From a virus (lineage: Duplodnaviria; Caudoviricetes), in IMG/VR virus record IMGVR_UViG_3300014204_000009, positions 27,966-91,965 of that record: a stretch of 64,000 bases of DNA; one strand, written 5' to 3'. How positions within the stretch are numbered: the stretch's first letter is position 1; every line of letters begins with the position of its first letter. The position numbers and the translations under genes are program-made. The notes beneath the pieces were generated by a model. It was not told where the DNA came from and did not search any database. It saw only the letters and a program-made list of their open reading frames with translations. Positions 2-64,000 of the stretch are shown here, piece by piece.

Positions 2-3000
2 AATTATGGAATTGAATATTGGACAAAGAAAGTAATTAATGATAGGCTTGTTGAAGTTCCTGGAGAAATTAGATTTAAAGATGATAATGATAAACCAATA
101 ATATTAACTAGATTTAGTGGTAATGGAGTATCATCTTTTAATGGACAAACTAGAACTAAACAACAGAATATTAATACTCAATTAGGAGCAGCATTAGATA
201 ATAAAGGTTTAGGTAATGTTGGTATTAATAGTATTACAATTCCTGCTTCAATTGCTATTACTCAACTTGAAACTAATGAAGCAATAGGATTAGATTTAAG
301 GTATAATACTAGATTTTTAAGTCAAGAAGCTGTTAAATTAATTGTAAATGATATTGAAACTAACTTACGTAGTACATCTACTAAGTATTTTAAGAATATG
401 TATACAATTAAATCATCAGCATTAAATAAAGTTGATAATTACTTTGCTAGTAAAATTACTAATCCTATTAAAAAGAGTGATGATTATATTAAATCTTTAG
501 CTTTTAGTCCTAAAGACTTAATGGATATGTTTAATATTAATTCTCAAGATAAAACTAAAAATGATGATTATTATGCTTCGCAATTAGCTGTTGTTCGTCA
601 ATATGCAGAACTTACTAAAATAGGTGATGATATTATTAAATCTAGACGAGCAATACTTTCACCTATTACTAATGGAGCTGGAACTAATTTTGCAAAAGCT
701 ATTAGTTTACAGAAAGATATTGAATCATTAAAGAGTAATACTACATTACATAATATTGGTAAGATATTAGGACATTCTATTGAAGGTCAAGAATATAATC
801 TTAGAAGTTTAATTCCTGATACTGAATATGGATTAGCTGCAAAGAATGTAGTTCAACTTGCTACTGAATTAGGTAAACAACTTCTTCCTATTGAAGCTGG
901 AGTATTTGATCATGTTGAAACTCTATATCTTTCTCTTACTGGATTAGAGGATGTTTCTACTAATATGAGAAATACTCTAATTAAAGATTTCAAGAAGTTT
1001 ATATATGCTGGTAATCCTGCACTATATAAAATTAAAGATGTTAGTATTGAAAGAGAAAGATTATTATTTGATTCTAAAACTAGTAGATCACTTGTTAATA
1101 GATTAAGAATATATAAAGATGGTAAAGGATCTAAGAATCCATATACTAGTAAATTAGCTACTGATAAAGGTGTAACTAAAGGATCACCAGATGTTATTAG
1201 ATATAAAGGTATTCGTGGAACTGGTATATTTGAAGAAGAGAATATAGTATATCTAGTTGATATGTTATTAAGTTCTGATAAAGAAATTAGAGATTTAGCT
1301 CAAGATTTAATTACTTATAGTTATATAATTGGAAATGTTAATGGATCAATGAGCTTTAATAGATTTGCTCCTATTGAATATTTAGAGCAGATTGGATTTA
1401 ATAAAGTTTTTAGGTCTATTAATCAAATTATGAAAGATAGTGATTCTTTTGATCCTTTCTCTTCTGTATTTATATTTGATTTCTTTAGGCATCATCCTAA
1501 TTATGCAAATAGTATAGAAGCTAAAAATATATCTAAAATATTAAAAACTGATTCAGATAAAATTCCTACATTATTTACAGTACCTAGAATGGATGCTGAT
1601 AATAATGTAGCATATGATGTTATTATATGGGATAAGTTTGGTACTAATCCTAGGTACCCTTTGTTAGTATCTAGATATAATGAAAAAGCTAATCATTGGT
1701 ATATATACGAAAAGATAGGAACTGATCCTAATGGAGAAACTGTATATCAAGCAATCTCTACTTTAGGTGAAGCTAATGTTAGACGTAGTAATGTATCTGA
1801 ATATAACTTTAAAGGTGCAATTAAAAGTATATTATCTGCAAATAATGTTCCTGATACAACTACAGTAATTAATCTAGAAGTTCCTAATAGAAGAAAGGAA
1901 TTAAATATATTTAATGAAACTCCTAATGGAATTGACTATTCTAGTACTACTGATTACTTTAAAGAAAATATGTCAGAATTAGTTGATGACAGATTAGCTA
2001 ATTTAACTAATGATTATAAAACTTCATTTGAAAACACTATTGGTCAAATTGGAGGATCACCTTTCTACTCTACTTTATCTAAGATTATAGAGAAGAAGTT
2101 AAAAGAACAACATTTACATTTTAAAGTAGAAAGAGATTTTAATATTACAGCTGCTGCTGAAACTGACTTTAATGTAAAAACTGTAACTATTAATCCTCTT
2201 AATGTACTTAATACTTTCAATAGATTAGATTTTGCTACCAATGAGGAGTTCGCCGCTAAGTCATTAGATGCTAATTTACTTCACGAAGGAATGCATACTA
2301 TTACTAGATTTGCTACTAGAAATAGGAATAATAATTCAATGCAAGTTAATGCTATTTTATTTTCGTTAGATAAAACAATGGCTAAAGCTATTGAAGAATT
2401 ATCTAAAACTAATCCTAATTTAAAAGATGAGATAAAGACTTTCCAAGAAGTTATTGAAAAGAATAAAAACAATACTTTAACTGCTCAAGATTTAGAAGGT
2501 CTTAAAAGTAATATAGCATATGCACTCTCTAATACTGATGAATTTATTAGTGGTTTATTCACTAATAAAGAATTGCAGAAAGCTTTAAATGATATTAAAT
2601 ATGATAAAGATCAAACTCTATTAGAAAGAATTATTGATTTACTTTCTACATTTATTAAATACTTAGGAGAAGAATTAGGAATACAAGTTAATGAAGACTC
2701 TCTTTTATATGCTGGAATTCATGATATTATAAATCTTATTAATCTTCCTGAAGTTAATAATAATGCAATTGAATTTGATACTGCTAAATTAGCTAATTAT
2801 ACTGTATATAATCCTTTAGAGCCTGAAGTTAAAATATTAATTAATGAATTGGCTCAATTACGAAATACCTATACTGGAAGATATACAGAAGGAACAGTTA
2901 GTCAAGTAGATTCAGATAAAGTTACTAGTACTTCAATTGAAGATAGAAATTTATGGCAAAATAGAATTGCAGATATCAATTCAAGTATTGAAATGATTAA

Positions 3001-6000
3001 TATTAATCAAAGCCCTACTTCTATTGAAGATGCTATTAAACTTCAATTTGAATTTGTAGAACATATACTAAATAAGAATACCACTAATCCTAAAGAGTTA
3101 TTACAAGCTAGTAATATTGTAAATGCTTTTAATTCAAATACTACTGAACTTTATATGAGTGAGGCTCAATTATATCAGCCTACTAATCCATATAATGAAA
3201 TGTGGTCTAGAATTAATCGTATTGCAAAAGATTTAGATTTAAGGCTTATGGATAGATGGAGAAATTTAATATCTGATAAGAATAATGAATCTCAGACTAT
3301 AAATTATACTCCTGAAGAAATAGAAACTATTAAAGATTATGATCCTGAATTAATAACTAGATTAAAAACCAAGGGTACTAATTTAAGATATGTAAGACAA
3401 CATAGTAGAATGTTGTCAATGAATACTGATCCTAGTTTATTAAATGAACCTATTGCAGATGTTATATCTCTTATTACCGAATCAGCTAACTCTAATCTTA
3501 CTGCTAAATTAGTCAAGTTTTTAGATAAGATTAATGAAGAATTTAATATTTTATATAAGAATCCAGAAGCTAAAAGATTATGGAATACTGGTATAATTGA
3601 TCAAAAAGATGATAAAGGGAATTCAACTGGACGATTTACTTATATTTATTCAGATAAATGGAATAAAGATGCAAATGCTATTTATGATGAATATAATGCA
3701 ATTGTAGCAAGAAATCCTAAGAATAGAGAATTATCTGAAGCTAAGAAAAATAGAAATATTAAATTAAGACAACTTTCTATTAATATAGATATTCGATTTA
3801 AGTTCAGACCTAATTTTTCTACTACTGAAAAAGGGTATGAATTCAAAAATGATATTGAATATTATAATTACTTAAAGAAAGAGTTTGGAGAAGAGATATT
3901 CAAGGAACATATGGCTGATGCTGAACTTAAATATGAACAATATTTAAAAGAACTTGAATACACTACTAAAAGTATAGAAGAGGATGTAAGTATTAAAGAT
4001 AAAATTGGAGAAATTGCAAAATGGAAGATGAGAAATGATCCTCTAATTGGACTTGATATTAGATATGGAGCTAAGATTGAAAATCCTATTACTATTATTG
4101 AAAATCATACTGGAAATAGAATAACAACTGTTCCTAGAAAAACTATTGCAGGTAATGATTCAGGTTATTATGATAAAGCCTATGAAACTATATTAAAGAA
4201 TGAAACTTTACATAATTTCTATAAGTTTTATGTAAATCATTTAAGTGATATGTTAAGTCTATTACCTAATGATGTTAGAACTTATCTTCCTAAGAACTTC
4301 TTACCTTATATGTTAGCTGAATTAACTCAGATTTATGCTAAAGAAGGATATGAAGGAGTTATTAAGTTTATGGGAGAGAAGTTCTATAATGGAATTACTT
4401 CTCCTGAAGTATCATTATTAAATTATTCTCATTCTACTGCTAATGTAGATATTCATGGTAATCTTATTAAAAAGGTTCCTGTTAGATATTTAAAGACTAT
4501 GCCTACTGATAATACAGAAGAAGGTAAATTAGCTAGAGAAGAATATATTAAAAATAGATCTACTGATTATAAGAGAATACTTGAATTATTCACTGAAATG
4601 GCAATGAATTTCAACTATAAAAATAGTGTGGTTGATTTAGTTGAAGGTGCTTATTTAGTGATGCAAGAAGCTACTGAAATTAGTGAAGATAAACAAGGTA
4701 GACCTATGCTTAATAAATTAAGAGATATTGCTGGAGTTAAAGATAAAAATACTACAATGCTTCAAGCGGTTAGATATAACATAGATGCTTTATTATATGA
4801 TGAAAGACGAGAAGCAGATAAAGTTAGTAAGATTAAAATTGCAAATACTCTTAATATTAGAGAATATAAAAAGAATAAAAAAAGAGAGTTAATATTAGAA
4901 GGAGAAAGAGATAAACTAGAGAAAAGATTAGCTGATAGAGAAATTACATTACCTGAATTTGAACATTTAATTAAACCTTTTGAAGATGAATATAAGTTAA
5001 TTGCTAGACATAATTTAGTTTGGGGTAAACTTGGAGATAGATTAATTGGGTTAACTCAACTTAAAGGTTTAGGACTTAATTTAAATGCTGGTATTGCTAA
5101 TATTGGGTTTGGATTAATGAGTAATCTAACTTACGCTAATGGTCGAGTTGATTTTGATCGTACATCAATGGGAAAAGCATTTACTATGATGTTTCATGTG
5201 TTGAATGGTAAATCTGTAACTGGTAAAAAGATTACTAAACTTATTCATCTTTATAATATATTATTTGAAGTTGCTGAAAGTAGATATGGAGAAGATACAG
5301 ATAAACTATTGATTAAACTATGGGGTAAGAAGCTCGATCCTTATGTATTTCAGACTAAAGGTGAATTTTATGTACAAGGTATGTCATTTCTTGCTCATAT
5401 GTTATTTACTAAAATTCAATCTAAGAATGGAGAGATTAGTTTATTTAATGCTTATGATAATAATGGAGAATGGAATAAAAGTTTATTTACAGATGAAGTA
5501 AATGCTGAGTGGAGTCATATGATTGGTCCACTTGAGTTTAATAACTTTACTAAAACTAGAGAAAGAGTTATTCAATTTAATAAAGCTATTCATGGTAACT
5601 ATAATCCTAATATGCCTATATGGGCTAAGAAATACTTACTTGGTAGAATGTTATTTCAATTTAGAACTTGGGTTCCTGAAGGAGTTGAATCTAGATTTGG
5701 AAATATAAGATGGGATAAAAGACTTGGTAGATATAGAATGGGTAGATATAGAACATATGGAGATTTAGGAGTTATGGGATCTATTAATCATTTGTTTAAA
5801 CAACTTATTGGTAGTCAACAAGCATTTATTCATTCTAATGGTAAATCATTTACTCCTTGGCAAATTGAAAATATGAGAAGAAACCTAGCTGAAATAGGAG
5901 TGTTTATTACTATGGCTGGAGCAGCACTTATATTAAAAGCTGCACTAAATCATATGGATGATGATGATGATCCTGAAGAAAAGGCTTTGATTTATAGCAT

Positions 6001-18018: not shown

Positions 18019-18933
18019 TTAGTTTATATAAATTAAGTATAATCTTAATACAATAAAATTTATAATTCTTCTAATTATAGAAGATTTATATGGTTGTCTA
18101 AACTGTTTCATAATATAAGGAATAGATTTTGTACCAGGATAAAACATAGTATCATCTATATTATCTACAATCTTACTATCTAATCTCTTTGAATTTTTAC
18201 TATTAGTTCCTGAATTATCATTTCCAATATGACGTACTAAAGATTCTCTTGGATAAATAGTTACATTATGTAGAACATATTCTTCAAAAGTTGCTCTAAT
18301 AGCCCAAGAATCAAGCTTTCTAATTATACTTTGAAATAGCATTGGAGTTAAATCAATTCCTCCAATGTTAAAAGCTTTTCGTGAGCTAGAAGATTTAATA
18401 AATGTATTAAACATACTAATATTCCAATCTATAGTATTCCATTTATATTTCCATGTTGCCCATCCAATAGAACAAAATCTAGGACTAGCATATGTAGAAA
18501 ATCTATAGTTTTTATAGAATTTTATATTAGGTGAATAAGCTGAAATTGAGAATACATGTGTATAATAATAAAATACAAGAGCACTATTCATATAATCTAT
18601 AAAACCTGTAGATACTACTATATCATCCTCTAATACAATAATAACATCTCTAATAGATAATTCAGTAGTAACCGCATTTATTATATTATTAGATAATCCT
18701 CTATTATGTGATCTTTCAACTATTCTTATAGATTTAAATCCTGTAATAGAATAACAATATTCTTTAACTTTATTAACATTTATACGATCATTATCATTAT
18801 CTTTTGCTCCATCAATATAAATGATAACATTTGTATTTTCAGCATTATTACATCTTAATAAAGATTCTACAGTTTGTCTTATATGATAAGGTCTATTATA
18901 AGCAATAATTAAAATATCAGCAAATTCATTCAT
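18019..18933 (-). CDS. GT-A fold (family 2-like) glycosyltransferase
   Basis: IIAYNRP, YIDG, NRGLSNNII, IVLEDD (DxD-like), GWATWK, HIG.D.SG. Confidence 0.88.
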   Translation of the reverse strand: MNEFADILIIAYNRPYHIRQTVESLLRCNNAENTNVIIYIDGAKDNDNDRINVNKVKEYCYSITGFKSIRIVERSHNRGLSNNIINAVTTELSIRDVIIVLEDDIVVSTGFIDYMNSALVFYYYTHVFSISAYSPNIKFYKNYRFSTYASPRFCSIGWATWKYKWNTIDWNISMFNTFIKSSSSRKAFNIGGIDLTPMLFQSIIRKLDSWAIRATFEEYVLHNVTIYPRESLVRHIGNDNSGTNSKNSKRLDSKIVDNIDDTMFYPGTKSIPYIMKQFRQPYKSSIIRRIINFIVLRLYLIYIN

Positions 18934-18937
18934 ATCT

Positions 18938-19396
18938 TTATTTATTAATTATTCTATAATCCCATATAACTAAATCTGTAATTCTTTTTTTATTATCATC
19001 CAAATACCATACAGGATATTGTAGATATTCATCCCATATAATATAGCCATATATATAATAACAAGAATAATCATAATCCTCTCTAATATATATGTTAGTA
19101 TCTATGAATATATTAGACCTTATATATTTAATTTTAGTAGTATCACTTACTAACAATAAGGAAGAAGAAGTATCATAATGAATATAATCTTCTATAGGCA
19201 ATAATGTATCATAATGAATATAATCTTCTATAAGCCATAATGTATCATGGATAGTAATTAATTTATTAGTATCAAATTGCATATAGTAATTTGGTACTAT
19301 TAATATAGTATCACATTTTATATAATATAAACTATCTATATATTGTGATTTACAATTAAATCCTATAATAAGTAGTAGTATTAATATCTTTTTCAT
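18938..19396 (-). CDS. Secreted protein rich in D-[ST]-x sequons
   Basis: Likely start MKKILILLLIIGFNCKS|Q (Sec signal, Gln +1); DSL, DTI, DTL, DTL, DTT. Confidence 0.7.
   Translation of the reverse strand: MKKILILLLIIGFNCKSQYIDSLYYIKCDTILIVPNYYMQFDTNKLITIHDTLWLIEDYIHYDTLLPIEDYIHYDTSSSLLLVSDTTKIKYIRSNIFIDTNIYIREDYDYSCYYIYGYIIWDEYLQYPVWYLDDNKKRITDLVIWDYRIINK
19170..19248. repeat. 36-bp in-frame tandem duplication
   Basis: gtatcataatgaatataatcttctata(g/a)gc(a/c)ataat x2 plus partial; encodes DTL(W/L)(L/P)IEDYIHY. Confidence 0.9.
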
Positions 19397-19406
19397 CTTA
19401 TTGTTA

Positions 19407-19718
19407 TTATACATCAGAAGATTTATCTATATTTTCACTATTATGACCATGATATTCGTTTGCCCCACAAATATCACATCCCATACTACTTTTTTTAGGT
19501 TGTTGGTACTTGCGGAGGATGGTGAGTACTGTTTGAATGGCTTGATTCCATTCTTCCAATACAGTAGTATCTATTAGCCCCTCGATCTCCTTAATTATGG
19601 CGGGGAGGTTGGATTCCTGAGAACATTCATTCCATACTTGTAATAGTGCTTGCTTGACACTTACACTATCTGGGTAGGCTGTGCTTTCTTGTATCTCTTT
19701 AATTCTATCTGAATTCAT
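19407..19718 (-). CDS. Hypothetical protein with C-terminal CxxC/His motif
   Basis: CDICGANEYHGH; locally higher GC. Confidence 0.55.
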   Translation of the reverse strand: MNSDRIKEIQESTAYPDSVSVKQALLQVWNECSQESNLPAIIKEIEGLIDTTVLEEWNQAIQTVLTILRKYQQPKKSSMGCDICGANEYHGHNSENIDKSSDV

Positions 19719-19951
19719 TTCTCTATAATTAAATTGAGTATACTTAAATTATCTTTACATTCTTGATCTCCAATCTGATATGTAGAATCAGTTAGATAAG
19801 TAGTAGAATCACAATCTGTAGTTAATACTACATAAGATTCATTATCTTGATTTATACCTTTATTTGTAATAGTTCCACAATCACAATCTTCATTATCATT
19901 CCAACAGCTATTTATAAATAGTGGAATAAGTAATATTAATATATATTTCAT
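19715..19951 (-). CDS. Small Cys-rich lipoprotein
   Basis: Likely start MKYILILLIPLFINS|C (lipobox), acidic residues after Cys, two DST sequons. Confidence 0.7.
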   Translation of the reverse strand: MKYILILLIPLFINSCWNDNEDCDCGTITNKGINQDNESYVVLTTDCDSTTYLTDSTYQIGDQECKDNLSILNLIIEK

Positions 19952-19952
19952 A

Positions 19953-21449
19953 TCATTTATGTTTATAATACCAATCAATAAGTAAATTAATAGCTTGTTT
20001 ATCTTGTGAATTAAAGAATGATTTACGAATATTAAAATATTCTACTACTGTATCTATTGAAACGTTATTTAAATTTATATATGGTTCTTTAGTAGTATTA
20101 TTTATTAGAATAGGTTTTGTTATATTTATTCCAAAATCTTTTATGAGTTTATAATATAAATTATTTGTAATAGCTCGTAATCCACTATATTTATAGAATG
20201 CATATTGTGTTCCACTTTTAATATCTATCCATAAACTTTCAATATCATGTTTAGAATCTTCTCTAAGATAACATTCAAATTTAATATTATCCATAAATTT
20301 ACTAAATGGATCTCTATAATTCATACTTTCATAAATTGATCTAATTTATATCTTCTTCCATAATAAGTAACATACATAATACCATTATTAGTACATTTTA
20401 TAAATTGCCAATGACTAACTTTACCATAATATCTAAGTCTAGCTTGTAACATTTCATTATATAACTCAATCTCTAATCCTCCATGATTAGAAAGAGTAAG
20501 ACTACCATGTGGTATAAAAGTACTCATATAAATTTACCTTTATTTTCATTAATAACTTCTTTTTTAATTCTCTTTTTAGGTATAAGATTATCTTTATTAA
20601 TATAACCTTTTGCATGAAGTCTATCAATAAAATCATTTATTGTATTAGCAGTTATACCTCTATACATAAAAGTATATTCAAATTTACTTCCCTGTGTTTT
20701 AGATATATGTATAGTAATAAGAGCATATTTACTTAGAGGTTCTGTTTGTAATTCAGTTAGAATCTTCTGTAACAACTTTTCCATTTTTAGTAACTTTTAA
20801 AATTAATGCATAATCAGGAAAATGTAAACTTTCTCTAGCACAATTGAAAGATGATTCACTATCATGATGTAGTATAGGACTCATTCTTTCTTTCTCTCTA
20901 ATATGAGGATCAGTTTCTTGATTACAAAAACAAGGATAATAACTTTGACTTGTTTTAGTATCTTTATTCCAATATAAACCCTTAGTAACTATAATTCTAG
21001 ATATAACACTATTTGAAGGATTACCTTTACCAAATGCAATTATATCTTTAGGATTAATACCAAATTCATTATTAAATATAGAAGTAACTTCAGCTAGAGT
21101 TTTACTATATAGTTCATGAATTCTATCATTAATAGATTTATCAATACTAATTAATATAATATCTCTTTCTTCACTTGAATAGAGATTTACTGATTTACCT
21201 TTAAATTTATGAGTCATAATATTATATTTTTATTTCTTCTATAAGTGAAGTGATAGCAGCACAATGATACTTAATTTCTTCTTTAATTTTATCTATATTT
21301 ATATATATATTTTTATGTGTATCATTTAAATCAGGTAAACTCCAATCAGGATCAAAATACATACATCTAATACAATATCTTTTACCATGCATAATTTGCA
21401 TATTACAATCATGGCACCCACCATGAAATATAATCATATTTGTATTCAT
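19953..21449 (-). CDS. Five small hypothetical proteins (19953-20324, 20321-20527, 20524-20784, 20753-21217, 21222-21449)
   Basis: Tightly packed, overlapping ORFs; the last has CHDC..CIRC. Confidence 0.55.
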
Positions 21450-45342: not shown

Positions 45343-46446
45343 GTGATGAAAAAGTTATTATTATTTATTGTATTATTCTTATCTATAAATGTACTATCTG
45401 CACAAGTTGTAGATTCTCTTCGTATTCATGTTCCTATAATGGATTATGCTTTTATTGATACAATTACTGATACAATTACAGGAGAAATGATATTCTGTAC
45501 TGATTGTTCCAGTACTGCTAGTGGAACACTAGTTATATTTAATAGAGGTAATTGGGAAACATTAGAAGGCACTTCTTTGAATATTCCATCTACTCCTACA
45601 CTAGATACTATTATTACTAGTTTAACTTCTATTGTTTGGGATTGGAATTTAGATACTACAGTAACTGGATATAAATGGAATATTACAAATACTTATTCTA
45701 CTGCTACAGATATGGATACAGTTCATACTAGAACAGAAACTAGTTTAACTTGTAATACAGTATATACTAGATATGTGTGGGCATATAATACATATGGTCA
45801 TTCATCTGTATTAACTATGAGTGATACTACTACTGATTGTTGGACTTGTGATTCAGTTACTGTTATTCATCTTGCTGATCTTATTGCTCCAGTTGCTGAT
45901 ACTATTACTTATTATGGAGTTACTGGAATTCTTGGAGAAACTACTAAATGTTGGACTACTCAAAACTTAGGTGCAACTACTCAACCAAGTGCTTATAATG
46001 ATACTGCTGTTGCTTCTCTAGGTTGGTATTTTCAATTTAATAGTAAACGTGGTTATCAATGGGAAGATAGTGTTAGAACTCCATCTAGTACATGGACTAG
46101 TTCTATTACTAGTAATTCAAGTTGGCTAACGGCTAATGATCCATGTGCTATTGAACTTGGAACTGGTTGGAGAATACCTACTAGTACTGAATGGTATAAT
46201 ATAGATAAAGAGAATGAATGGGTTAATAATGATAGTGTATATAATGATACTCTTTATTTACATGCTGCTGGTAGATTAACTAATACTACAGGAGCAATGA
46301 ATTATAGAGGTAGTAATGGTTATTATTGGAGTAGTACACAAGCAAGTTCTACACAAGGTAAGATATTTTATTTTACTTCAAGTGCTGCTAACATTACTAG
46401 TTATTATAAGACTGCTGCTTGTTCTATTAGATGTATTCATAATTAA
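45343..46446 (+). CDS. Secreted FN3 + Fib_succ_major (FISUMP/CLec-like) domain protein
   Basis: Signal MKKLLLFIVLFLSINVLSA|Q; YTRYVWAYN..G.S (FN3); WTTQNLGA, GWRIPT..EW, LHAAG, YYWSST, SIRCI; 13 D-[ST]-[AILVMT] sequons by hand count. Confidence 0.8.
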   Translation: MMKKLLLFIVLFLSINVLSAQVVDSLRIHVPIMDYAFIDTITDTITGEMIFCTDCSSTASGTLVIFNRGNWETLEGTSLNIPSTPTLDTIITSLTSIVWDWNLDTTVTGYKWNITNTYSTATDMDTVHTRTETSLTCNTVYTRYVWAYNTYGHSSVLTMSDTTTDCWTCDSVTVIHLADLIAPVADTITYYGVTGILGETTKCWTTQNLGATTQPSAYNDTAVASLGWYFQFNSKRGYQWEDSVRTPSSTWTSSITSNSSWLTANDPCAIELGTGWRIPTSTEWYNIDKENEWVNNDSVYNDTLYLHAAGRLTNTTGAMNYRGSNGYYWSSTQASSTQGKIFYFTSSAANITSYYKTAACSIRCIHN

Positions 46447-57660: not shown

Positions 57661-58929
57661 ATGAATGTAAGTACAATGCATATTGGTATAGAATTAGGTC
57701 TACAAGAACTTAATTCTAATTTATGGAATACTCTTCAACATGAAGAAAAAGATTATTATATAAATAGGATTATAGAAAACTTTGTTAGAGCTGTTGCCCT
57801 TAAAGAAGATAATGATATTAAGAGTATTATATCTTATGCAGATATTCAAAAATATTATGAAACTATAAATCCATTTATTAGAGATATTATAACCAGTTTT
57901 ATTAACTATGAATCTGAAGGATATATAGAATGTATTATTCCTAGAGATAATACAATTGGTGAAGTGGATACTACTAATGGAATGCTATATGATGGAGTAA
58001 CATATAGAGTTCAAACTCCTGGATATACTGATTTATCTGGGTTTGGATATTTTAATATTGGTAGTCAAGTTGTAAATGATGAATTTATATGTGATATAGT
58101 TGAAGTAACTTCTCTTGCTAGTTATAATGTATGGAAAGGTGAGATTTATAGAATTATAAATAATCCTGAAAATATAGACTTTACATCTTATGGAGCTACT
58201 TCTAATGAACCTGGTTCTCAATTTACAGTTAATGCTGATAATCTTATTGAAGATGATCATGTTATTACTTTAAAACCATTACTTGCTAAACCTAATTGGG
58301 CTGGACCAGTTATACTTAATCCTGGTGATCCTACTGGGCCTACTGAACTTGTTGCAGTAGATAATTTAGGAAAGTTTGAATTTATATCTAGTGAATCTTT
58401 TACAGCTTGTGGTTTATTTCTTAATTCAGGAGTACTTGAAAAAGATCAATATTATGGAGTTTTAGTAACTGGTACTACTGATCTTAGAACTTATGGTGCA
58501 TATACTAGTTCAATGAATGATGTGAATTTAGTATTTAAATGTATACTAGATGGAACTCCTACTTGGAGTGGAGGTACTAGACTAATAAAACTTAATAAAG
58601 TTCCTAATAGATTAGTTAAGTATCAAGATAAAGGTACTTTTCTTAATCATGCATATGGTACTTTACAAACAAGTCCTGTTTCTACTATGATAGATAATAA
58701 ACTTAGAGTTTATCATGATAGAAAATTTACTATTTTTGGAGTATATATTCAATATGTTAAAACTCCTAATGTTGTAGATTATAATTCTAATGTAGATTGT
58801 AATTTGCCTAATTCTATTCATGGTAAAATAGTAGATTGGACAGTAATGAAGATTGCAGGAGTTACTAATAATCCTGCCTATAATACTCAAAAAGACTTTG
58901 AAGTAACTGAAAAATCAATACCTAAATAA
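57661..58929 (+). CDS. Neck/ring (head-tail adaptor) protein with inserted repeat modules
   Basis: Ring-protein-like N-terminus (EEKDYYIN) and C-terminus (YVKTP..CNLP..IH..IVD). Confidence 0.7.
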   Translation: MNVSTMHIGIELGLQELNSNLWNTLQHEEKDYYINRIIENFVRAVALKEDNDIKSIISYADIQKYYETINPFIRDIITSFINYESEGYIECIIPRDNTIGEVDTTNGMLYDGVTYRVQTPGYTDLSGFGYFNIGSQVVNDEFICDIVEVTSLASYNVWKGEIYRIINNPENIDFTSYGATSNEPGSQFTVNADNLIEDDHVITLKPLLAKPNWAGPVILNPGDPTGPTELVAVDNLGKFEFISSESFTACGLFLNSGVLEKDQYYGVLVTGTTDLRTYGAYTSSMNDVNLVFKCILDGTPTWSGGTRLIKLNKVPNRLVKYQDKGTFLNHAYGTLQTSPVSTMIDNKLRVYHDRKFTIFGVYIQYVKTPNVVDYNSNVDCNLPNSIHGKIVDWTVMKIAGVTNNPAYNTQKDFEVTEKSIPK

Positions 58930-59690
58930 TGGACTACACTATAGAAATGATTGCTAGAGATATAGCAAAGATTACTATTGGAGTTAACAATTATGATGTT
59001 GCTCTTACTCCAGTTATAATAGATCATGATTCATATGCTGAAAGTGATGCTGATATAGCTATTTCTCCATCTGTTACTGCTGTTGATAATGTATATACTT
59101 TAGATGAAGTTGCTGATACTGAATATGAAATTACATTTAATGCTGATGGAGTATATAAATTATATATAACTGAAAATGATATTGATTATCTTCATATTAT
59201 TATAATTGCTAATACAGTTGATGATTATTTTGAAGATAAAATTCCTGATTTCTTATCAACTACTCCATTAAGTGAAGATGATAGTAATAGAGAGTATTAT
59301 GATTTCAATGTTATTACTGTTCTCACTATAAACTTCTTTGGAGAAACTAATCAGAATATATATTTAAATTATGAGGATATTACTAGTGGTATATTATATG
59401 AAGGTAATATTTATCAATGTAATAGTAGTGGAGCTGGAACATTTGATTGGCAAGATTCTAGTAATGAAGACTTATTAATGAATATGAATGGAAGTGCAGT
59501 TACTTCAAATAATCCATTGGTAGTTGATACATATTATAAATGTATTAAAACTGGAACTCCTACTAATTGGGGATCAGAAACTCCTACTGAAATTACTTTA
59601 TATTCTGATTATTTTGATACTTGGATTAAAAGAGTAGTTGATTCATTATATAAATTTAGTATATATAATCAAACTAATATAGATAATTAA
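58929..59690 (+). CDS. Acidic virion structural protein
   Basis: ADGVYKL; carries a related repeat module. Confidence 0.55.
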   Translation: MDYTIEMIARDIAKITIGVNNYDVALTPVIIDHDSYAESDADIAISPSVTAVDNVYTLDEVADTEYEITFNADGVYKLYITENDIDYLHIIIIANTVDDYFEDKIPDFLSTTPLSEDDSNREYYDFNVITVLTINFFGETNQNIYLNYEDITSGILYEGNIYQCNSSGAGTFDWQDSSNEDLLMNMNGSAVTSNNPLVVDTYYKCIKTGTPTNWGSETPTEITLYSDYFDTWIKRVVDSLYKFSIYNQTNIDN

Positions 59691-59694
59691 TATC

Positions 59695-60015
59695 ATGATT
59701 AATTCTAATATACCTTCTTTATTTGAACCTGTTTATTTTAAAGCTTTCCTAGTTAATTATATGGAAAGAGTTTCATTTTCTATGGTAAATGCTTTTACTG
59801 AAGAAGAACATCAAGGAAGTTCTAATTATTGGAAATTAAATCAACAGTTTATATTTGCTTATCTTTTTGGAAGATTAGTAAAAAAGAGATTATATTATGG
59901 AGAAACTCTTGAAGAAATAGAAGCTACATTTAGTATTGATGATATTAGAAGTAAACTAACTATTAATCATATTGATTTAGATAAAGTATATGAATCATTC
60001 AATATTACATATTAA
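59695..60015 (+). CDS. Hypothetical structural-module protein
   Basis: ORF in operon. Confidence 0.55.
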   Translation: MINSNIPSLFEPVYFKAFLVNYMERVSFSMVNAFTEEEHQGSSNYWKLNQQFIFAYLFGRLVKKRLYYGETLEEIEATFSIDDIRSKLTINHIDLDKVYESFNITY

Positions 60016-63000
60016 TAAAGTACGATTTACTCTATACCTTATATTTATATATAGTATATTGTTTTCATTTTCATCCTTTGCTCAAAACATTGAGGGTAAT
60101 AATGTTATACTACCTTTAACTACTGGTAGTGTAGGTAATATTAAAATGGGACAATGGTCAGCTATTAATATGTATGGTATTAAGAATATATATGTAGGTA
60201 ATGCTGCTAATTTAACTAGTCCTTATGCTGATAGTAATGTATCAGTTGGATTTGGTTCTTTACGATTACTAACTACTGGTTCTAGAAATACTATTATTGG
60301 TTCTCATGCAGGTGGTAAAATAACTACAGCTGATGGTAATATATGGATTGGTAATGAAGCTGGAGATGATACTACATTTAGATCATTAAATGATATTGGA
60401 GGAATTGATAATACTGATACTATTTGTCCTCTTATATCATTTGATTTTGCTAATAATGAAGTTAGAATTTGTGGTACATTAGATGTAAACAATGGTATAA
60501 CAGGACTTGATTCGGTATTATGGTATCTTGATGGGGATACTATTATAAATAAATCTAATCATCTAGTTAAAATAGATAATGATTTATATTTAACTGGACT
60601 TAGAAGTGAACCTAGAATTAATTATGTACTTACTTGGGAATACACTACTGGAAATGTACATTCTACTACTATTCAATCTTTAGCAGATACTCTTACAATA
60701 TATAATACAGGATATTGGGAATTAGTTAATGGTCATTTAGAAACTAAAGATATTGATTCTGTTTGGGCAGATATTATTAATACAGATACTATTACGAATT
60801 TATCAAAAGTGATTGGGGATAGTTGTTATTCTGAATTATGGTACTCTTTTGTATTGGGGGATGGGAATTATATTTATGGTCAGGATACAGGGGTTTCAAT
60901 TACGTTTACGATTGAAGGTGGGGATTGGGATATTAATGTTGGAGATAGTGCTATTGTGTATAAGACCTGTTCAGATATAGTTGGTTGTGAGGGGTGTATG
61001 GGGGAACCTATTGGTGATCCACCAGTTTACAGTCCAGATAGTTGTAATTTGGTTGATACACTTGATTATGTAAAATCTGCAATAACCGATATTGATTTTG
61101 TTAGTGGGGATTATGTTTATACAATAAGTATTGGAGCAACCCTGTGTGAAGATTTAACTTGTCCACATTTACCTACTGGGTTTTACCAGGCAGATGTTTA
61201 CCGATGGATTTGTGTAGATGTTTATGGGGACGATCCTGTTGTTATTGATGATTCTTTAGTTATTACAGAAGGAACTTATTTTGAAAGTGGTATCTATGTG
61301 GAACGAGATGAAATGCCATATCTTGAACCTTCTGATCCTAAATATGGTTTGGCTACCCTGAGAAAATTAGATGCTTCCACAAAACGACAATTGGCTATGA
61401 CTACCTATGAAGATGCCGCAGATAGTCTTACTCAGTACATTGATACTTATTGGAATTATGTAGATGCTACCCCTGACACAACCTCAAATAAATATCCCGG
61501 AATCGTTGACATCAAGGGAAATATAAATTTACAAACAACAACGAGTTCTTTTGGACAGATAACGCAAAATGGATATCGGCTTTTCAGTACCTATGGAACT
61601 GATGTGACACCTCCATACACCTTTAATACAATTTTTGGATTGAATAGTGGTAACTTTAGTTTCACCGGAGGGGACAATACGGCTTTTGGAACAAACATTT
61701 TCCTTGCTCTTTCAACAGGACATCACAATTCAGCCTTTGGTGTAACTGCATTGAGTTTGGTAACGACAGGGGATAATAATACGGCCATTGGAGCATTAGC
61801 ATTGCAGAACAACACAACGGGCGATGAGAATACAGCAGTTGGATTTTATTCATTATTGAATAATGTGGCTGGTCTTGGAAGCACCGCCATTGGATATAGG
61901 GCAATGATGTATGCTAATTCTACCGCAACACCAACCACTACTTACAATACAGCGGTTGGTTACGAGGCTATGAGGGGGAGTACGATTTCTGTTAACAATA
62001 CTGGTAAATATAATACAGCAGTTGGTTATCAGTCTTTAGATGCTATGACAAGTGGAGGTTACAACACTGTGGTGGGGGTGAGTGCTGGTGGAAAAATAAC
62101 AACTGGAAGCAACAATACACTTATTGGATATAATGCCGGGATTGATGTTACCACACAAGAAAGTATTACCGGTGTTGGGTTTTCTGCATTAGAAAGTAAT
62201 AGCGGGAATTGGTCAACCGGCATTGGGTATGATGTGATGCACTGGAATACTGGTAATTATTCTAATGGTGTCGGACATCAGGCATTATGGGGTAATATCG
62301 GGGACTATTCTAATGGATTTGGCAATAATGCGTTACTTAAAAATGAAGCTGATTTCTCAAATGGTTTCGGGGATGGGGCATTATATAATAATATGGGTAT
62401 TGGCTCGAATGGTTTTGGACATAATGTCCTCTATTATAATGAGGGCGACTCTAATATTGCTTTTGGACATCTGGCTTTTAATGATTTCAACCTAAGCACT
62501 TCGGCAGAAAAAACATTTGCCTATACGGATATTGATGTTAATGATTATATAAACATTGCAGGGCATGGCTTTGGTTCAGCAGGAAGTTATGTGTTATTGA
62601 AATATTCAGAAGGAACATCCCCTATTGGTGGAATGACTAATGGAACGGTTTATGAGTTTTATATCGAAGATGCCACAAAGTTATATGTAATGACTACCGT
62701 GATAACCTCACATGGCACAGGTACAGGACATAAACTCACTCCTCAACATGTTTATTCTAATTCTATTGCCATTGGGTATAATGCCGAGCCTACAGGTAGT
62801 AATCAGATAAGGCTTGGAAATTCTGCTATTGAACACACCTATATTCCGCTTGATTCGGCCTCTGCTACTTATGGGGTTTATTACGATGCTGTTGCTAATG
62901 AATTGGTTTATAATATTACTGGAATTGGCGGTATTACCTCACATTCCGGTTTAGATAATCTTGATAATGATGATCATCTACAATATGCTCTTTTAAATGG

Positions 63001-64000
63001 TAGAGTTGGCGATACTCTTTTAATAGATAGTATAGGTTCAAAGCGTGTATCTGGTAATTATGCTGTAAATTTTATACATCCAATAACTGTTAAAACTACA
63101 AATGCTGTTGGTGGTGGAGATGTTGTTTTTTATAATGATACTATTGGACAGAATGACCCAGGACTAATGTTTAAAAATATAATTACAGGAGAAGAATATG
63201 GAATAATGAGGCATAGTGGAGATCATAGACTTCAACTATTTGGGAGTAAAGGAATTTGGTGGCAAGATAATAATGCCAATCAAATGAATTTTGATAGTCT
63301 TGGATTATATCCTATTTATTCACCTGGATTGGCTTTAGGGCAACTTAGTTATCCTTGGGCAAAGTTGTATACTACTAATATTACTGATGATTCGACTAAT
63401 ATCAAATTTAATGTTCCCGTAACTACTGATGATTCTGTACTTACTATTAATGGAAGGATTATAGGAAAGAAAAAACTTGTTATTCCGGACGTAAGCGGAT
63501 ATCAATTAAACGCTGATACCTCTACTACTGATGCTACAAGAAAATGGGTAACTGATCAGGGATACCTTGTGGCAGAGGTTGATGGTTCGGTTTCTAATGA
63601 ACTCCAATCCTTAACTTATAATAGGGATACGAGAATTCTGGAAATTTCAGGGGGAACAGAGGATACATTAAATACGGTTGCAGTGACTAATGGGGCAACA
63701 GGATTATCTAATGCTGATCAGATATATGATTTTACAATAGGACTTGGCTATGTTCCAACAAATTCAACTACTACTCAATTAAATTATTTAAGTTCAGCCA
63801 CAGGAACCACAGGAACAAATACGACCAATATAGTATATTCAACTTCTCCAACATTAACAACCCCCAATATTGGAGTAGCAACGGCAACGAGTATTACTTA
63901 TACCGATCCAACCCCATACATGAACAGTTTTAGAACTGCACCTTTTTGGGTGAATGATTTTATGACATCTTCTACACAAACTTATCCTTGGGCAAGTACA
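59990..64000 (+). CDS. Large tail-fibre/adhesin-like protein with N-terminal Sec signal peptide (3'-truncated; absent from ORF track)
   Basis: Frame 2 read by hand, open from ATG 59990 to the window end (1337 codons): MNHSILHINKVRFTLYLIFIYSILFSFSSFA|QNIEG..., many NT(A/V)(I/V)G..AL..(N/T)TG beta-roll repeats, HSGLDNLDNDDHLQY, SPTLTTPNIGVATATS. Confidence 0.85.
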   Translation, partial: MNHSILHINKVRFTLYLIFIYSILFSFSSFAQNIEGNNVILPLTTGSVGNIKMGQWSAINMYGIKNIYVGNAANLTSPYADSNVSVGFGSLRLLTTGSRNTIIGSHAGGKITTADGNIWIGNEAGDDTTFRSLNDIGGIDNTDTICPLISFDFANNEVRICGTLDVNNGITGLDSVLWYLDGDTIINKSNHLVKIDNDLYLTGLRSEPRINYVLTWEYTTGNVHSTTIQSLADTLTIYNTGYWELVNGHLETKDIDSVWADIINTDTITNLSKVIGDSCYSELWYSFVLGDGNYIYGQDTGVSITFTIEGGDWDINVGDSAIVYKTCSDIVGCEGCMGEPIGDPPVYSPDSCNLVDTLDYVKSAITDIDFVSGDYVYTISIGATLCEDLTCPHLPTGFYQADVYRWICVDVYGDDPVVIDDSLVITEGTYFESGIYVERDEMPYLEPSDPKYGLATLRKLDASTKRQLAMTTYEDAADSLTQYIDTYWNYVDATPDTTSNKYPGIVDIKGNINLQTTTSSFGQITQNGYRLFSTYGTDVTPPYTFNTIFGLNSGNFSFTGGDNTAFGTNIFLALSTGHHNSAFGVTALSLVTTGDNNTAIGALALQNNTTGDENTAVGFYSLLNNVAGLGSTAIGYRAMMYANSTATPTTTYNTAVGYEAMRGSTISVNNTGKYNTAVGYQSLDAMTSGGYNTVVGVSAGGKITTGSNNTLIGYNAGIDVTTQESITGVGFSALESNSGNWSTGIGYDVMHWNTGNYSNGVGHQALWGNIGDYSNGFGNNALLKNEADFSNGFGDGALYNNMGIGSNGFGHNVLYYNEGDSNIAFGHLAFNDFNLSTSAEKTFAYTDIDVNDYINIAGHGFGSAGSYVLLKYSEGTSPIGGMTNGTVYEFYIEDATKLYVMTTVITSHGTGTGHKLTPQHVYSNSIAIGYNAEPTGSNQIRLGNSAIEHTYIPLDSASATYGVYYDAVANELVYNITGIGGITSHSGLDNLDNDDHLQYALLNGRVGDTLLIDSIGSKRVSGNYAVNFIHPITVKTTNAVGGGDVVFYNDTIGQNDPGLMFKNIITGEEYGIMRHSGDHRLQLFGSKGIWWQDNNANQMNFDSLGLYPIYSPGLALGQLSYPWAKLYTTNITDDSTNIKFNVPVTTDDSVLTINGRIIGKKKLVIPDVSGYQLNADTSTTDATRKWVTDQGYLVAEVDGSVSNELQSLTYNRDTRILEISGGTEDTLNTVAVTNGATGLSNADQIYDFTIGLGYVPTNSTTTQLNYLSSATGTTGTNTTNIVYSTSPTLTTPNIGVATATSITYTDPTPYMNSFRTAPFWVNDFMTSSTQTYPWAST

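What the first reader, a model, noticed from the sequence alone, without database searches (positions are those of the whole stretch)
59990..64000. Fibre-like protein in the virion operon carries a Sec signal peptide, paired Cys and ~20 Bacteroidota O-glycosylation sequons
Seen: a 1337+ codon ORF directly after the neck genes starts with a basic-hydrophobic-SFA|Q signal peptide. By hand count it has ~20 D-[ST]-[AILVMT] motifs (e.g. DTT, DTI, DSV, DTL, DSA, DSL), none inside the beta-roll repeat block (~61.6-62.5 kb), and 10 Cys in the N-terminal third, 8 of them in ~60830-61215. The cytoplasmically assembled MCP has 1 such motif in 492 aa and the portal 2 in 756 aa. Known: Bacteroidota O-glycosylate exported proteins at this sequon in the periplasm, where disulfides also form; tailed-phage fibres normally assemble in the cytoplasm. 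Inference: the phage exports a receptor-binding/fibre protein for host glycosylation and disulfide formation, then either adds it to virions at lysis (host-glycan-coated virion) or displays it on infected cells.
Basis: partly seen in the sequence, partly recalled or inferred. Interest (0 to 1): 0.88.

Follow-up and report, generated by a model that had tools for sequence, protein, structure and literature searches.

The report
Exported, sequon-rich crassvirus tail fibre
A crAss-like phage of Bacteroidota makes its tail-fibre-like host-recognition protein with a bacterial secretion signal and about 2.5 times the chance number of its host's sugar-attachment motif, so this virion part very probably matures in the periplasm, which is not how tailed-phage fibres are known to be made.

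Summary
The gene wraps the end of a circular 91.8-kb crassvirus genome and encodes 1525 aa. It starts with a 31-aa Sec/SPI signal peptide ending SFA|Q. All seven family members found keep a leader and an invariant Gln at +1, which is the Bacteroidota Q-rule.

The protein has 21 D-[ST]-[AILVMT] sequons against 8.5±2.7 in shuffles. Across the genome, only the five signal-peptide proteins are enriched (52 observed, 15.7 expected); the other proteins have 67 against 74. Pooled over 11 exported phage proteins the excess is 3.2-fold (z 14.6). Eight control motifs stay within 0.7-1.4.

In related crassviruses the same position holds leader-bearing fibres, and in one of them every fibre-module protein has a leader. 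Fibres of cultured crassviruses (ΦcrAss001, phi14:2) have no leader and no excess.

Export and host O-glycosylation are well supported in silico. Joining the virion is inferred from synteny, a conserved mature N-terminus, a swapped C-terminal module, and MS-verified leader-bearing tail proteins in Cellulophaga phage phi18:3.

This scan has already noted the same phenomenon in at least 23 other genomes. No paper describing it was found.

The parts
59990..60082 (+). Sec/SPI signal peptide (aa 1-31), predicted cleavage SFA|Q32
   Evidence: It has n-, h- and c-regions and Gln at +1. The leader and invariant Q are kept in 7 of 7 family members despite divergent leader sequences. The first 26 nt overlap the upstream 106-aa gene.
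60083..60799 (+). Conserved mature N-terminal domain (aa 32-270): Q-x-[VIL]xLPxT peptide, short beta-roll repeats, and an IGGIDN-DTICPL...ICG motif with a conserved Cys146/Cys161 pair. Candidate virion-attachment end.
   Evidence: It is 59-61% identical to P0003 and P0002 and recognisable in P0033, P0041, P0043 and P0059 directly after their leaders. It has 7 sequons against 1.5 expected.
60800..61549 (+). Variable Cys-rich region (aa 271-520) with 8 Cys
   Evidence: Cys lie at 279, 327, 333, 336, 352, 386, 391 and 408. Cys327/333 and Cys386/391 are conserved in the homologues. It has 5 sequons against 1.9 expected.
61550..62839 (+). Beta-roll repeat block (aa 521-950) of phage tail-fibre/tailspike type
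   Evidence: It matches PHROG tail spike phrog_4636 (1.3e-24) and virion structural phrog_6002 and phrog_23837. tblastn matches tail fibres of many phages. It has 0 sequons against 1.27 expected, which is not significant.
62840..64000 (+). Distal shaft (aa 951-1337). The gene continues past the window to genome coordinate 690, ending in a PF22237 SO2946-like_C domain (aa ~1350-1515).
   Evidence: The wrap is shown. Pfam PF22237 scores 3.1e-27, and there is a weak match to PDB 2a5z. Residues 951-1300 have 8 sequons against 2.4 expected. P0004, from an unrelated phage, is 68% identical by BLASTP over 78% of residues 880-1337.
58929..59690 (+). 253-aa protein, candidate tail-hub subunit (by position only)
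   Evidence: It is conserved (55% identity) and syntenic in L004 and L012. No Pfam or PHROG family was found. No detectable similarity to ΦcrAss001 gp38. The model was unusable, pLDDT 36.
59695..60015 (+). 106-aa protein, candidate small hub subunit (by position only), overlapping the fibre start
   Evidence: A 103-106-aa gene always precedes the leader-bearing fibre in L004, L012 and the P0041 contig. No similarity to ΦcrAss001 gp39.
45346..46446 (+). Second exported sequon-rich protein (366 aa, leader ...NVLSA|QV)
   Evidence: It has 13 sequons against 2.45 expected, z 7.3. There are weak FISUMP and Lcl_C matches below cut-off.
18938..19414 (-). Exported (lipoprotein-like) 158-aa protein, next to a GT2 glycosyltransferase at 18019-18933
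   Evidence: Its leader is ...IIGFN|C, with 5 sequons against 0.79 expected, z 5.0. GT2 matches PF00535 at 7e-9.

Best explanation
The 1525-aa protein is the tail fibre, or receptor-binding protein, of a crassvirus lineage, and it is made as a secretory pre-protein.

Shown by sequence: it has a 31-aa Sec/SPI leader with Gln at +1. It has a conserved mature N-terminal domain, a phage-type beta-roll shaft and an exchangeable C-terminal SO2946-like tip. It has about 20 Bacteroidota O-glycosylation sequons outside the beta-roll.

Inferred steps:
1. Host Sec exports it, and signal peptidase I cleaves before Q32, which is probably cyclised to pyroglutamate.
2. The host's general periplasmic O-glycosylation system decorates the D-[ST]-[AILVMT] sites. 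Local Cys pairs may oxidise there.
3. The glycosylated trimer accumulates in the periplasm, because it has no lipobox and no T9SS C-terminal domain.
4. When the adjacent lysis genes breach the inner membrane, its conserved mature N-terminus docks onto the hub of fibre-less particles. This is analogous to ΦcrAss001 gp22 residues 1-26.

The result would be virions whose fibres carry host-type O-glycans.
For: Leader: it is present and conserved with an invariant Q+1 in 7 of 7 family members, while the leader sequences themselves diverge. The Q-rule is specific to Bacteroidetes (PMC5837995).

Sequons:
- The fibre has 21 against 8.5 expected.
- Within the genome, all 5 leader proteins have z>=3, against 1 of 87 other proteins (Fisher 1e-7).
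- Pooled over 11 exported proteins, D[ST]h is 123 observed against 38.7 expected. The controls E/N/G/K[ST]h, the reversed motif, D[ST]non-h and D[NQ]h give ratios of 0.7-1.4.
- 16 leaderless homologous fibres give a ratio of 0.8.
- Sequons turn over between homologues but their density is kept: 6 shared columns, 5 private to this protein and 14 private to the homologues.
- Engineered sequons on exported proteins are glycosylated in Bacteroidota (review PMC12871550).

Virion role:
- The gene sits in the structural operon between candidate hub genes and CrAss_Ring_2/Ring_1.
- The same position holds leader-bearing fibres in L004, L012 and the P0041 contig. In the P0041 contig it is the only large gene of the module.
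- In L004 all five module proteins (896, 281, 881, 303 and 138 aa) carry Q-rule leaders.
- This genome has no fibre-like protein without a leader.
- The N-terminus is conserved within the lineage. P0004, from an unrelated phage with its own leader and a different N-terminus, shares the distal region, 68% identical over 78% of residues 880-1337. This is the classic fibre pattern.
- In cultured Cellulophaga phage phi18:3, gp085-087 are annotated as virion or tail proteins from MS/MS, and all three carry Q-rule leaders.
- No T9SS C-terminal domain was found.
Against: - There are no experimental data for this phage.
- The upstream 253- and 106-aa proteins could not be shown to be hub proteins.
- Cultured crassviruses ΦcrAss001 and phi14:2, and the crAss-like Flavobacterium phage FpV4, have no leader on their structural proteins.
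- The 157-aa gene that travels with the fibre tip has no leader, so it would be in a different compartment.
- The phi18:3 exported virion proteins are depleted in sequons (3 observed, 9.7 expected), so export does not always come with glycosylation.
- Many Bacteroidota proteins with the same repeats also carry Q-rule leaders (57 of the 148 top hits not seen in earlier searches). The one whose context was checked (P0014) lies in a bacterial chromosome, so such fibres can work on cells.
Confidence: 0.55

Rival explanations
1. The protein is exported and glycosylated but is not a virion part. It stays in the envelope or on the surface of the infected cell, or is released as a free protein. There it could act as an adhesin, a receptor-masking or superinfection-exclusion factor, or a decoy, in the way Bdellovibrio MAT fibres sit on the cell surface.
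For: The evidence for the leader and sequons is the same as above. Bdellovibrio MAT proteins have a signal peptide, a conserved N-terminal domain, a trimeric phage-like shaft and swapped tips, and they are surface-displayed (PMC10769870). P0014, a Bacteroidota chromosomal protein with a Q-rule leader and tail-fibre domains, is also sequon-enriched. P. gingivalis phages encode Q-rule proteins proposed to modify the host envelope (PMC10367356).
Against: The genome would then have no tail-fibre candidate at all. The gene occupies the fibre position of the structural operon and overlaps the upstream structural gene in several related phages. It has no lipobox and no T9SS C-terminal domain to take it to the surface. 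An unrelated phage has a different N-terminus on the same tip, which fits virion-specific anchoring. Leader-bearing tail proteins are found in phi18:3 virions.
Confidence: 0.27
2. The gene is a bacterial secreted fibre/adhesin cassette recently captured by the phage (a moron). Its leader and sequons are inherited baggage and not a phage adaptation.
For: 77 of the 148 top profile hits not seen in earlier searches have leaders, 57 of them with Q+1, and the one whose context was checked (P0014) is chromosomal.
Against: The specific N-terminal domain was found only behind leaders. Of the six relatives' contigs examined, four (P0002, P0003, P0041, P0043) looked like phage contigs, three of them with crAss markers or crass synteny. 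P0033's contig was too short to judge and P0059's was not looked up. Bacterial relatives with the shared repeats are not sequon-enriched as a group (0.95x), whereas this family has z 5-8. Other unrelated proteins of the same phage module also have leaders and sequon excess.
Confidence: 0.1
3. The hydrophobic N-terminus is not used for export. It would be a docking or assembly peptide, or an annotation artefact, the fibre would fold in the cytoplasm, and the sequon excess would have a structural cause.
For: AT-rich genomes yield many hydrophobic codons. ΦcrAss001 gp22 uses its first 26 residues for docking (PMC10172136).
Against: The gp22 N-terminus is not hydrophobic, and gp22-26 have no sequon excess. 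The Q+1 residue and small -3/-1 residues are conserved over divergent leaders. The excess is specific to Asp, to the forward orientation and to a hydrophobic +1 residue, and it tracks leaders across unrelated proteins. Leaderless homologues give 0.8x.
Confidence: 0.06

Closest known systems
Tail fibres of cultured crassviruses (ΦcrAss001 gp22-gp26; PMC10172136)
   Same: Both are large fibre or tailspike proteins in a crassvirus structural block, next to a lysis cassette and the ring and hub genes. Both have an N-terminus expected to dock on a hub.
   Different: gp22-26 have no signal peptide and sequon counts near expectation. BLASTP found no similarity between P0001 and gp22; gp23-26 were not compared. 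In ΦcrAss001 the fibre module follows the portal gene, whereas here it sits between the hub-like genes and Ring_2.
Leader-bearing virion proteins gp085-gp087 of Cellulophaga podovirus phi18:3 (NC_021794; annotated from MS/MS)
   Same: These are tail or structural proteins of a tailed phage of Bacteroidota with SPI-type leaders and Gln at +1. They are recorded as virion components from proteomics.
   Different: The phage family is different (Pachyviridae). BLASTP found no similarity between P0001 and gp086; gp085 and gp087 were not compared. Their sequons are depleted, not enriched (3 observed, 9.7 expected). No paper found in the library discusses their leaders.
Substrates of the Bacteroidota general O-glycosylation system and the Q-rule (PMC12871550; PMC5837995; PMC10653852)
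   Same: A Sec leader, Gln at +1 and D-[ST]-[AILVMT] sequons in soluble non-cytoplasmic regions.
   Different: The known substrates are host proteins. Here the candidate substrate is a phage structural protein, and its sequon density is about 2.5-fold above chance, or 3.2-fold for the pooled phage set.
Bdellovibrio MAT (mosaic adhesive trimer) fibres (PMC10769870)
   Same: A signal peptide, then a conserved N-terminal domain, then a phage-like trimeric shaft, then an exchangeable binding tip.
   Different: MAT proteins are cellular, surface-displayed, and often end in an S74 chaperone. This protein is encoded in a phage virion operon, has no S74 domain, and has a different N-terminal domain.
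Q-rule signal-peptide proteins of Porphyromonas gingivalis phages (PMC10367356)
   Same: Phage-encoded proteins that follow the Bacteroidetes Q-rule.
   Different: Those are five genes of unknown function. They are not described as fibre-like or structural in that paper, and the paper does not mention glycosylation.

Membership tests
Bacteroidota Sec/SPI substrates obeying the Q-rule | N-terminal signal peptide with a basic n-region, a hydrophobic h-region, and small residues at -3 and -1 | tested here: met
   It has K10 and R12, an 18-residue uncharged h-region, and S-F-A before the site. SignalP was not available, so a simple heuristic was used. That heuristic flagged only 6 of 92 ORFs in this genome.
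Bacteroidota Sec/SPI substrates obeying the Q-rule | Gln at +1 of the cleavage site | tested here: met
   Q32 is invariant in 7 of 7 family members. The other three SPI-type leaders of the phage also have Q+1.
Bacteroidota Sec/SPI substrates obeying the Q-rule | Actual cleavage and a pyroglutamate N-terminus | not testable with these tools
   This needs N-terminal proteomics.
Substrates of the Bacteroidota general O-glycosylation system | Non-cytoplasmic location plus the D-[ST]-[AILVMT] motif | tested here: met
   It has a leader and 21 sequons against 8.5 expected. The motif-specific excess is limited to leader proteins.
Substrates of the Bacteroidota general O-glycosylation system | Glycan attached at the motif | not testable with these tools
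   This needs glycoproteomics.
Substrates of the Bacteroidota general O-glycosylation system | Host belongs to Bacteroidota | tested here: inconclusive
   The phage is a crassvirus by MCP, portal and Ring_1/2, and the Q-rule leaders point to Bacteroidota. No host genome match was found and there are no tRNAs.
Crassvirus hub-docked tail fibre (ΦcrAss001 gp22-like) | Sequence similarity to gp22 | tested here: not met
   BLASTP found nothing significant.
Crassvirus hub-docked tail fibre (ΦcrAss001 gp22-like) | N-terminus bound in a THA2-THB hub | not testable with these tools
Hub homology was undetectable.
Crassvirus hub-docked tail fibre (ΦcrAss001 gp22-like) | Encoded in the virion module next to the ring and hub genes | tested here: met
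Phage tail-fibre/tailspike beta-roll repeat proteins (phrog_4636, phrog_6002) | Profile match to the repeat region | tested here: met
   E-values were 1.3e-24 and 7.7e-24, and tblastn matched annotated tail fibres.
PF22237 SO2946-like_C | Pfam match above the gathering score | tested here: met
   It scored 96 bits against a cut-off of 27, covering model positions 1-163 of 163.
T9SS cargo | C-terminal sorting domain (Por_Secre_tail / TIGR04183 / TIGR04131) | tested here: not met
   No hit in Pfam or NCBIfam for the fibre or the other exported proteins.
MAT-type or S74 fibres | C-terminal Peptidase_S74 intramolecular chaperone | tested here: not met
   The Pfam scans of the whole protein found no PF13884.

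The most novel reading that the evidence does not exclude
A lineage of crassviruses, and independently other Bacteroidota phages, splits virion assembly between two compartments. Heads and tails are built in the cytoplasm. All fibres are exported by Sec, coated with the host's own O-glycan in the periplasm, and attached only when the inner membrane is breached. Released virions would therefore carry host-type glycans on their receptor-binding appendages.
Probability: 0.45. Interest if true: 0.9.

Novelty: new variant of a known kind. Interest (0 to 1): 0.78.

Why it matters
Tailed-phage particles are taken to be assembled entirely in the cytoplasm. A fibre that must pass through Sec, signal peptidase and the host's periplasmic glycosylation machinery would add a compartment, and several host factors, to virion assembly.

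It would also put host-type glycans on the parts of the phage that touch the host and, for gut or animal-associated phages, mucus and immune cells. This could affect protease resistance, host range, adsorption to debris, and phage engineering in Bacteroidota.

It matters for annotation as well. Leader-bearing fibre genes are easily misread as bacterial genes or morons.

The phenomenon is testable in a cultured system, Cellulophaga phage phi18:3.

Tried and rejected
Structure and binding:
- AlphaFold2 of the 253-aa hub-like protein gave pLDDT 36. AlphaFold2 of fibre residues 32-520 gave pLDDT 28. Both models were unusable, so no fold search was done.
- BLASTP and hhalign of the 253- and 106-aa proteins against ΦcrAss001 gp38 and gp39 gave no signal.
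- The ESM Atlas gave nothing meaningful for the 253-aa protein.

Searches that found nothing:
- IMG/VR scan for the N-terminal domain: no relatives.
- Genome-contig scan with P0004, to find a prophage and so a host: nothing.
- No tRNAs in the window.
- PDB sequence search with the fibre: nothing except a weak hit to 2a5z for the tip.
- Literature searches for exported or glycosylated fibres of Bacteroidota phages: no paper found.

Ideas considered and rejected:
- The hydrophobic N-terminus as a gp22-like docking peptide. The gp22 N-terminus is polar.
- T9SS export. No C-terminal sorting domain was found.
- The internal start at Met53. It is not conserved.
- 'No sequons in the beta-roll' as evidence. 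The result is not significant.
- Cys pairs as proof of periplasmic folding. Cytoplasmic crassvirus virion proteins also form disulfides.

Full report
**What is there.** The window is the last 64 kb of a 91,965-bp IMG/VR virus record with a 123-bp terminal repeat, which means a circular 91,842-bp assembly. The ORF starting at 59990 runs off the window (1337 codons). It continues across the record junction to genome coordinate 690, giving a 1525-aa protein. An independent contig protein (P0004) reads through the same junction sequence, so the join is real.

The phage is a crassvirus:
- PHROG portal and major head hits.
- MCP 44% identical to uncultured phage cr127_1 (Crevaviridae), with matches to many crAssphages.
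- Pfam CrAss_Ring_2 and CrAss_Ring_1 just downstream.
- A 3861-aa giant protein.

G+C is 27.6%.

**The signal peptide.** The N-terminus is MNHSILHINKVR-FTLYLIFIYSILFSFSSFA|QNIEG. It has a basic n-region, an 18-residue uncharged core, small residues at -3 and -1, and Gln at +1. A simple Sec heuristic flags 6 of 92 ORFs in this genome. Four are SPI-type with Q at +1 (the fibre and the 472-, 138- and 366-aa proteins), one is lipoprotein-like, and one is a 102-aa membrane protein.

Homologues P0002 and P0003 share about 60% identity over mature residues 32-270. Their leaders differ in sequence and length but keep the hydrophobic core, and Q32 is invariant. A profile search of 1.84 billion representatives found four more proteins with this N-terminal domain directly behind a leader: P0032, P0033, P0041 and P0043, plus the short P0059. 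So 7 of 7 members have a leader with Q at +1, followed by a conserved [VIL]xLPxT peptide.

Gln at +1 is the Bacteroidetes 'Q-rule' of signal peptidase I substrates (PMC5837995, PMC10653852).

**The sequons.** The protein has 21 D-[ST]-[AILVMT] motifs against 8.5±2.7 in 5000 composition-preserving shuffles. No shuffle reached 21. By region the counts are:

| Residues | Observed | Expected |
|---|---|---|
| 32-270 | 7 | 1.5 |
| 271-520 | 5 | 1.9 |
| 521-950 (beta-roll) | 0 | 1.27 |
| 951-1300 | 8 | 2.4 |
| C-terminal tip | 1 | 1.2 |

The zero in the beta-roll has P=0.26, so its emptiness carries no weight.

The decisive control is the rest of the genome. All five leader-bearing proteins have z>=3 (52 observed, 15.7 expected). 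Only 1 of 87 other ORFs does, and those ORFs total 67 observed against 74 expected (Fisher 1e-7).

I pooled 11 leader proteins from this phage and from loci L004 and L006. D[ST]h is 123 observed against 38.7 expected (3.2-fold, z 14.6). The control motifs E[ST]h, N[ST]h, G[ST]h, [KR][ST]h, the reversed motif, D[ST]-non-hydrophobic, D[NQ]h and D[AG]h lie between 0.68 and 1.39.

Sixteen leaderless homologues of the fibre from other phages give 0.8. The seven family members have z 5-8, except the short P0059.

Sequon positions turn over between homologues while density is kept. There are 6 shared columns, 5 private to this protein and 14 private to P0002/P0003. This indicates continuing selection, not inheritance.

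The review PMC12871550 states three things. The motif is glycosylated only on non-cytoplasmic proteins. Motifs are usually nearly fully occupied. Engineered motifs become glycosylated.

**Context and relatives.** L004, L012 and the P0041 contig are related crassviruses with the same gene order: MCP, four or five unannotated structural genes, a 103-106-aa gene, the leader-bearing fibre, small genes, Ring_2, one unannotated gene, then Ring_1.
- In L004 all five proteins of the fibre module (896, 281, 881, 303 and 138 aa) have SPI leaders with Q+1. Four of them are sequon-enriched.
- In the P0041 contig the leader-bearing 1549-aa protein is the only large gene of the module.
- In this genome the module holds the fibre, two small leaderless proteins (157 and 172 aa), two leader proteins (472 and 138 aa), and then a putative lysis cassette that starts with a membrane protein.
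- No other fibre-like protein exists in the genome.

P0004 comes from an unrelated 74-kb phage contig with an integrase and G+C 40%. It has its own leader (..TVA|QW) and a different N-terminal region. It is 68% identical by BLASTP over 78% of residues 880-1337 of this fibre, and it carries the same C-terminal PF22237 domain. The next gene in that contig (157 aa) is 87% identical to the one here. A lineage-specific N-terminus joined to a horizontally exchanged tip is the standard signature of a virion fibre.

**Comparison with cultured phages.**
- ΦcrAss001 fibres gp22-26 have polar N-termini and sequon counts near expectation (1/3.5, 5/3.3, 0/1.1, 5/2.4, 5/2.7).
- The fibre module of Cellulophaga crassvirus phi14:2, and the crAss-like Flavobacterium phage FpV4, have no leaders.
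- The membrane-anchored lysis proteins ΦcrAss001 gp27 and a 192-aa phi14:2 protein are sequon-enriched (4/0.33 and 4/0.66). So the rule 'periplasm-exposed phage protein, therefore sequons' holds there too.
- Following a lead from earlier notes of this scan, I checked Cellulophaga podovirus phi18:3. Its gp085, gp086 and gp087 are annotated as virion or tail proteins 'based on experimental MS/MS proteomics analysis'. All three begin with canonical leaders cleaved before Gln (..FGYS|QV..GVSA|QT..GLNA|QT). Their sequons are depleted, at 3 observed against 9.7 expected.

The phi18:3 result is the only experimental hint that leader-bearing tail proteins of a Bacteroidota phage end up in particles. 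I found no paper that discusses it.

**Mechanism.** I consider export and cleavage (Q-rule) and selection for host O-glycosylation to be well supported, at about 0.8. The protein has no lipobox and no T9SS sorting domain, so it should be a soluble periplasmic protein until lysis.

That it then docks on the particle through its conserved mature N-terminus is an inference. It rests on synteny, on the absence of any other fibre, on the modular exchange pattern and on phi18:3. ΦcrAss001 gp22 docks through residues 1-26 (PMC10172136), which offers an analogy, but gp22 is not a detectable homologue.

The three conserved local Cys pairs (146/161, 327/333, 386/391) fit oxidative folding but do not prove it. 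ΦcrAss001 virions also contain disulfides.

Three observations count against the virion reading:
- The tip-linked 157-aa protein has no leader.
- Many Bacteroidota proteins with the same repeats also carry Q-rule leaders, and the one whose context was checked is chromosomal.
- Bdellovibrio MAT fibres show that such architectures can serve on cell surfaces (PMC10769870).

**What could not be done.** The complex predictor was closed. Both structure predictions failed. Hub homology was undetectable. No host genome match was found.

**Novelty.** Q-rule leader proteins have been noted in P. gingivalis phages without any link to fibres or glycosylation (PMC10367356). Literature searches found no description of Sec-exported, sequon-rich tail fibres. 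Notes from this scan report the same pattern in at least 23 other genomes, so it appears to be a widespread, undescribed trait of Bacteroidota phages and not an oddity of this record. I class it as a new variant of a known kind: a tail fibre with an unprecedented route of biogenesis.

Noticed in passing
genome coordinates 690-1163 (outside the window; L009:690-1163): A 157-aa leaderless protein lies directly after the fibre, with its start overlapping the fibre stop. It is 87% identical to the gene after P0004 in an unrelated phage (L006:13720-14193), so it travels with the fibre tip. It belongs to a viral family of unknown function, and the Atlas model is confident (pTM 0.88). It could be a tip accessory or chaperone, but it would be in a different compartment from an exported fibre.
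   Followed up: partly
genome coordinates 1723-3554 (outside the window; L009): Two more Q-rule leader proteins lie in the fibre module: 472 aa with 8 sequons against 3.2 expected, and 138 aa with 5 against 0.9. Both have homologues in L004 (303 and 138 aa).
   Followed up: partly
window 45346-46446 (+): A 366-aa Q-rule leader protein has 13 sequons against 2.45 expected (z 7.3), the densest in the genome. It has weak FISUMP and Lcl_C-like C-terminal matches below cut-off.
   Followed up: partly
window 18019-19978 (-): This cassette holds a small lipoprotein (MKYILILLIPLFINS|C...), a 103-aa protein, a 158-aa leader protein with 5 sequons, and a GT2 glycosyltransferase (PF00535, 7e-9). A phage glycosyltransferase next to exported sequon-rich proteins could alter the host O-glycan or a surface glycan.
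   Followed up: partly
L008:14094-14696 (ΦcrAss001 gp27) and L015:19230-19808 (phi14:2): The membrane-anchored lysis-module proteins of two cultured crassviruses are sequon-enriched (4 against 0.33, and 4 against 0.66). This suggests they are O-glycosylated in the periplasm.
   Followed up: no
L014:32891-38583 (Cellulophaga phage phi18:3 gp085-087): These MS/MS-verified virion or tail proteins carry Q-rule leaders but are depleted in sequons (3 against 9.7 expected). This is the opposite of the crassvirus family, so some exported phage proteins may avoid glycosylation.
   Followed up: partly
proteins P0034-P0173: A large family of 700-2600-aa proteins with Q-rule leaders has mature N-termini like QNVGIN-DGS-P--SAMLDV and carries the same beta-roll repeats. 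Their pooled sequon ratio is 0.95. Their genomic context was not examined. P0014, a related SP+Q fibre-like protein, lies in a bacterial chromosome beside T9SS cargo genes.
   Followed up: no
L003:3992-4402 (uncultured phage cr127_1): A 136-aa protein annotated 'EIAV coat protein-like' has a Q-rule leader and 3 sequons against 0.25 expected. The fibre-position protein of this phage (789 aa) has no leader.
   Followed up: no
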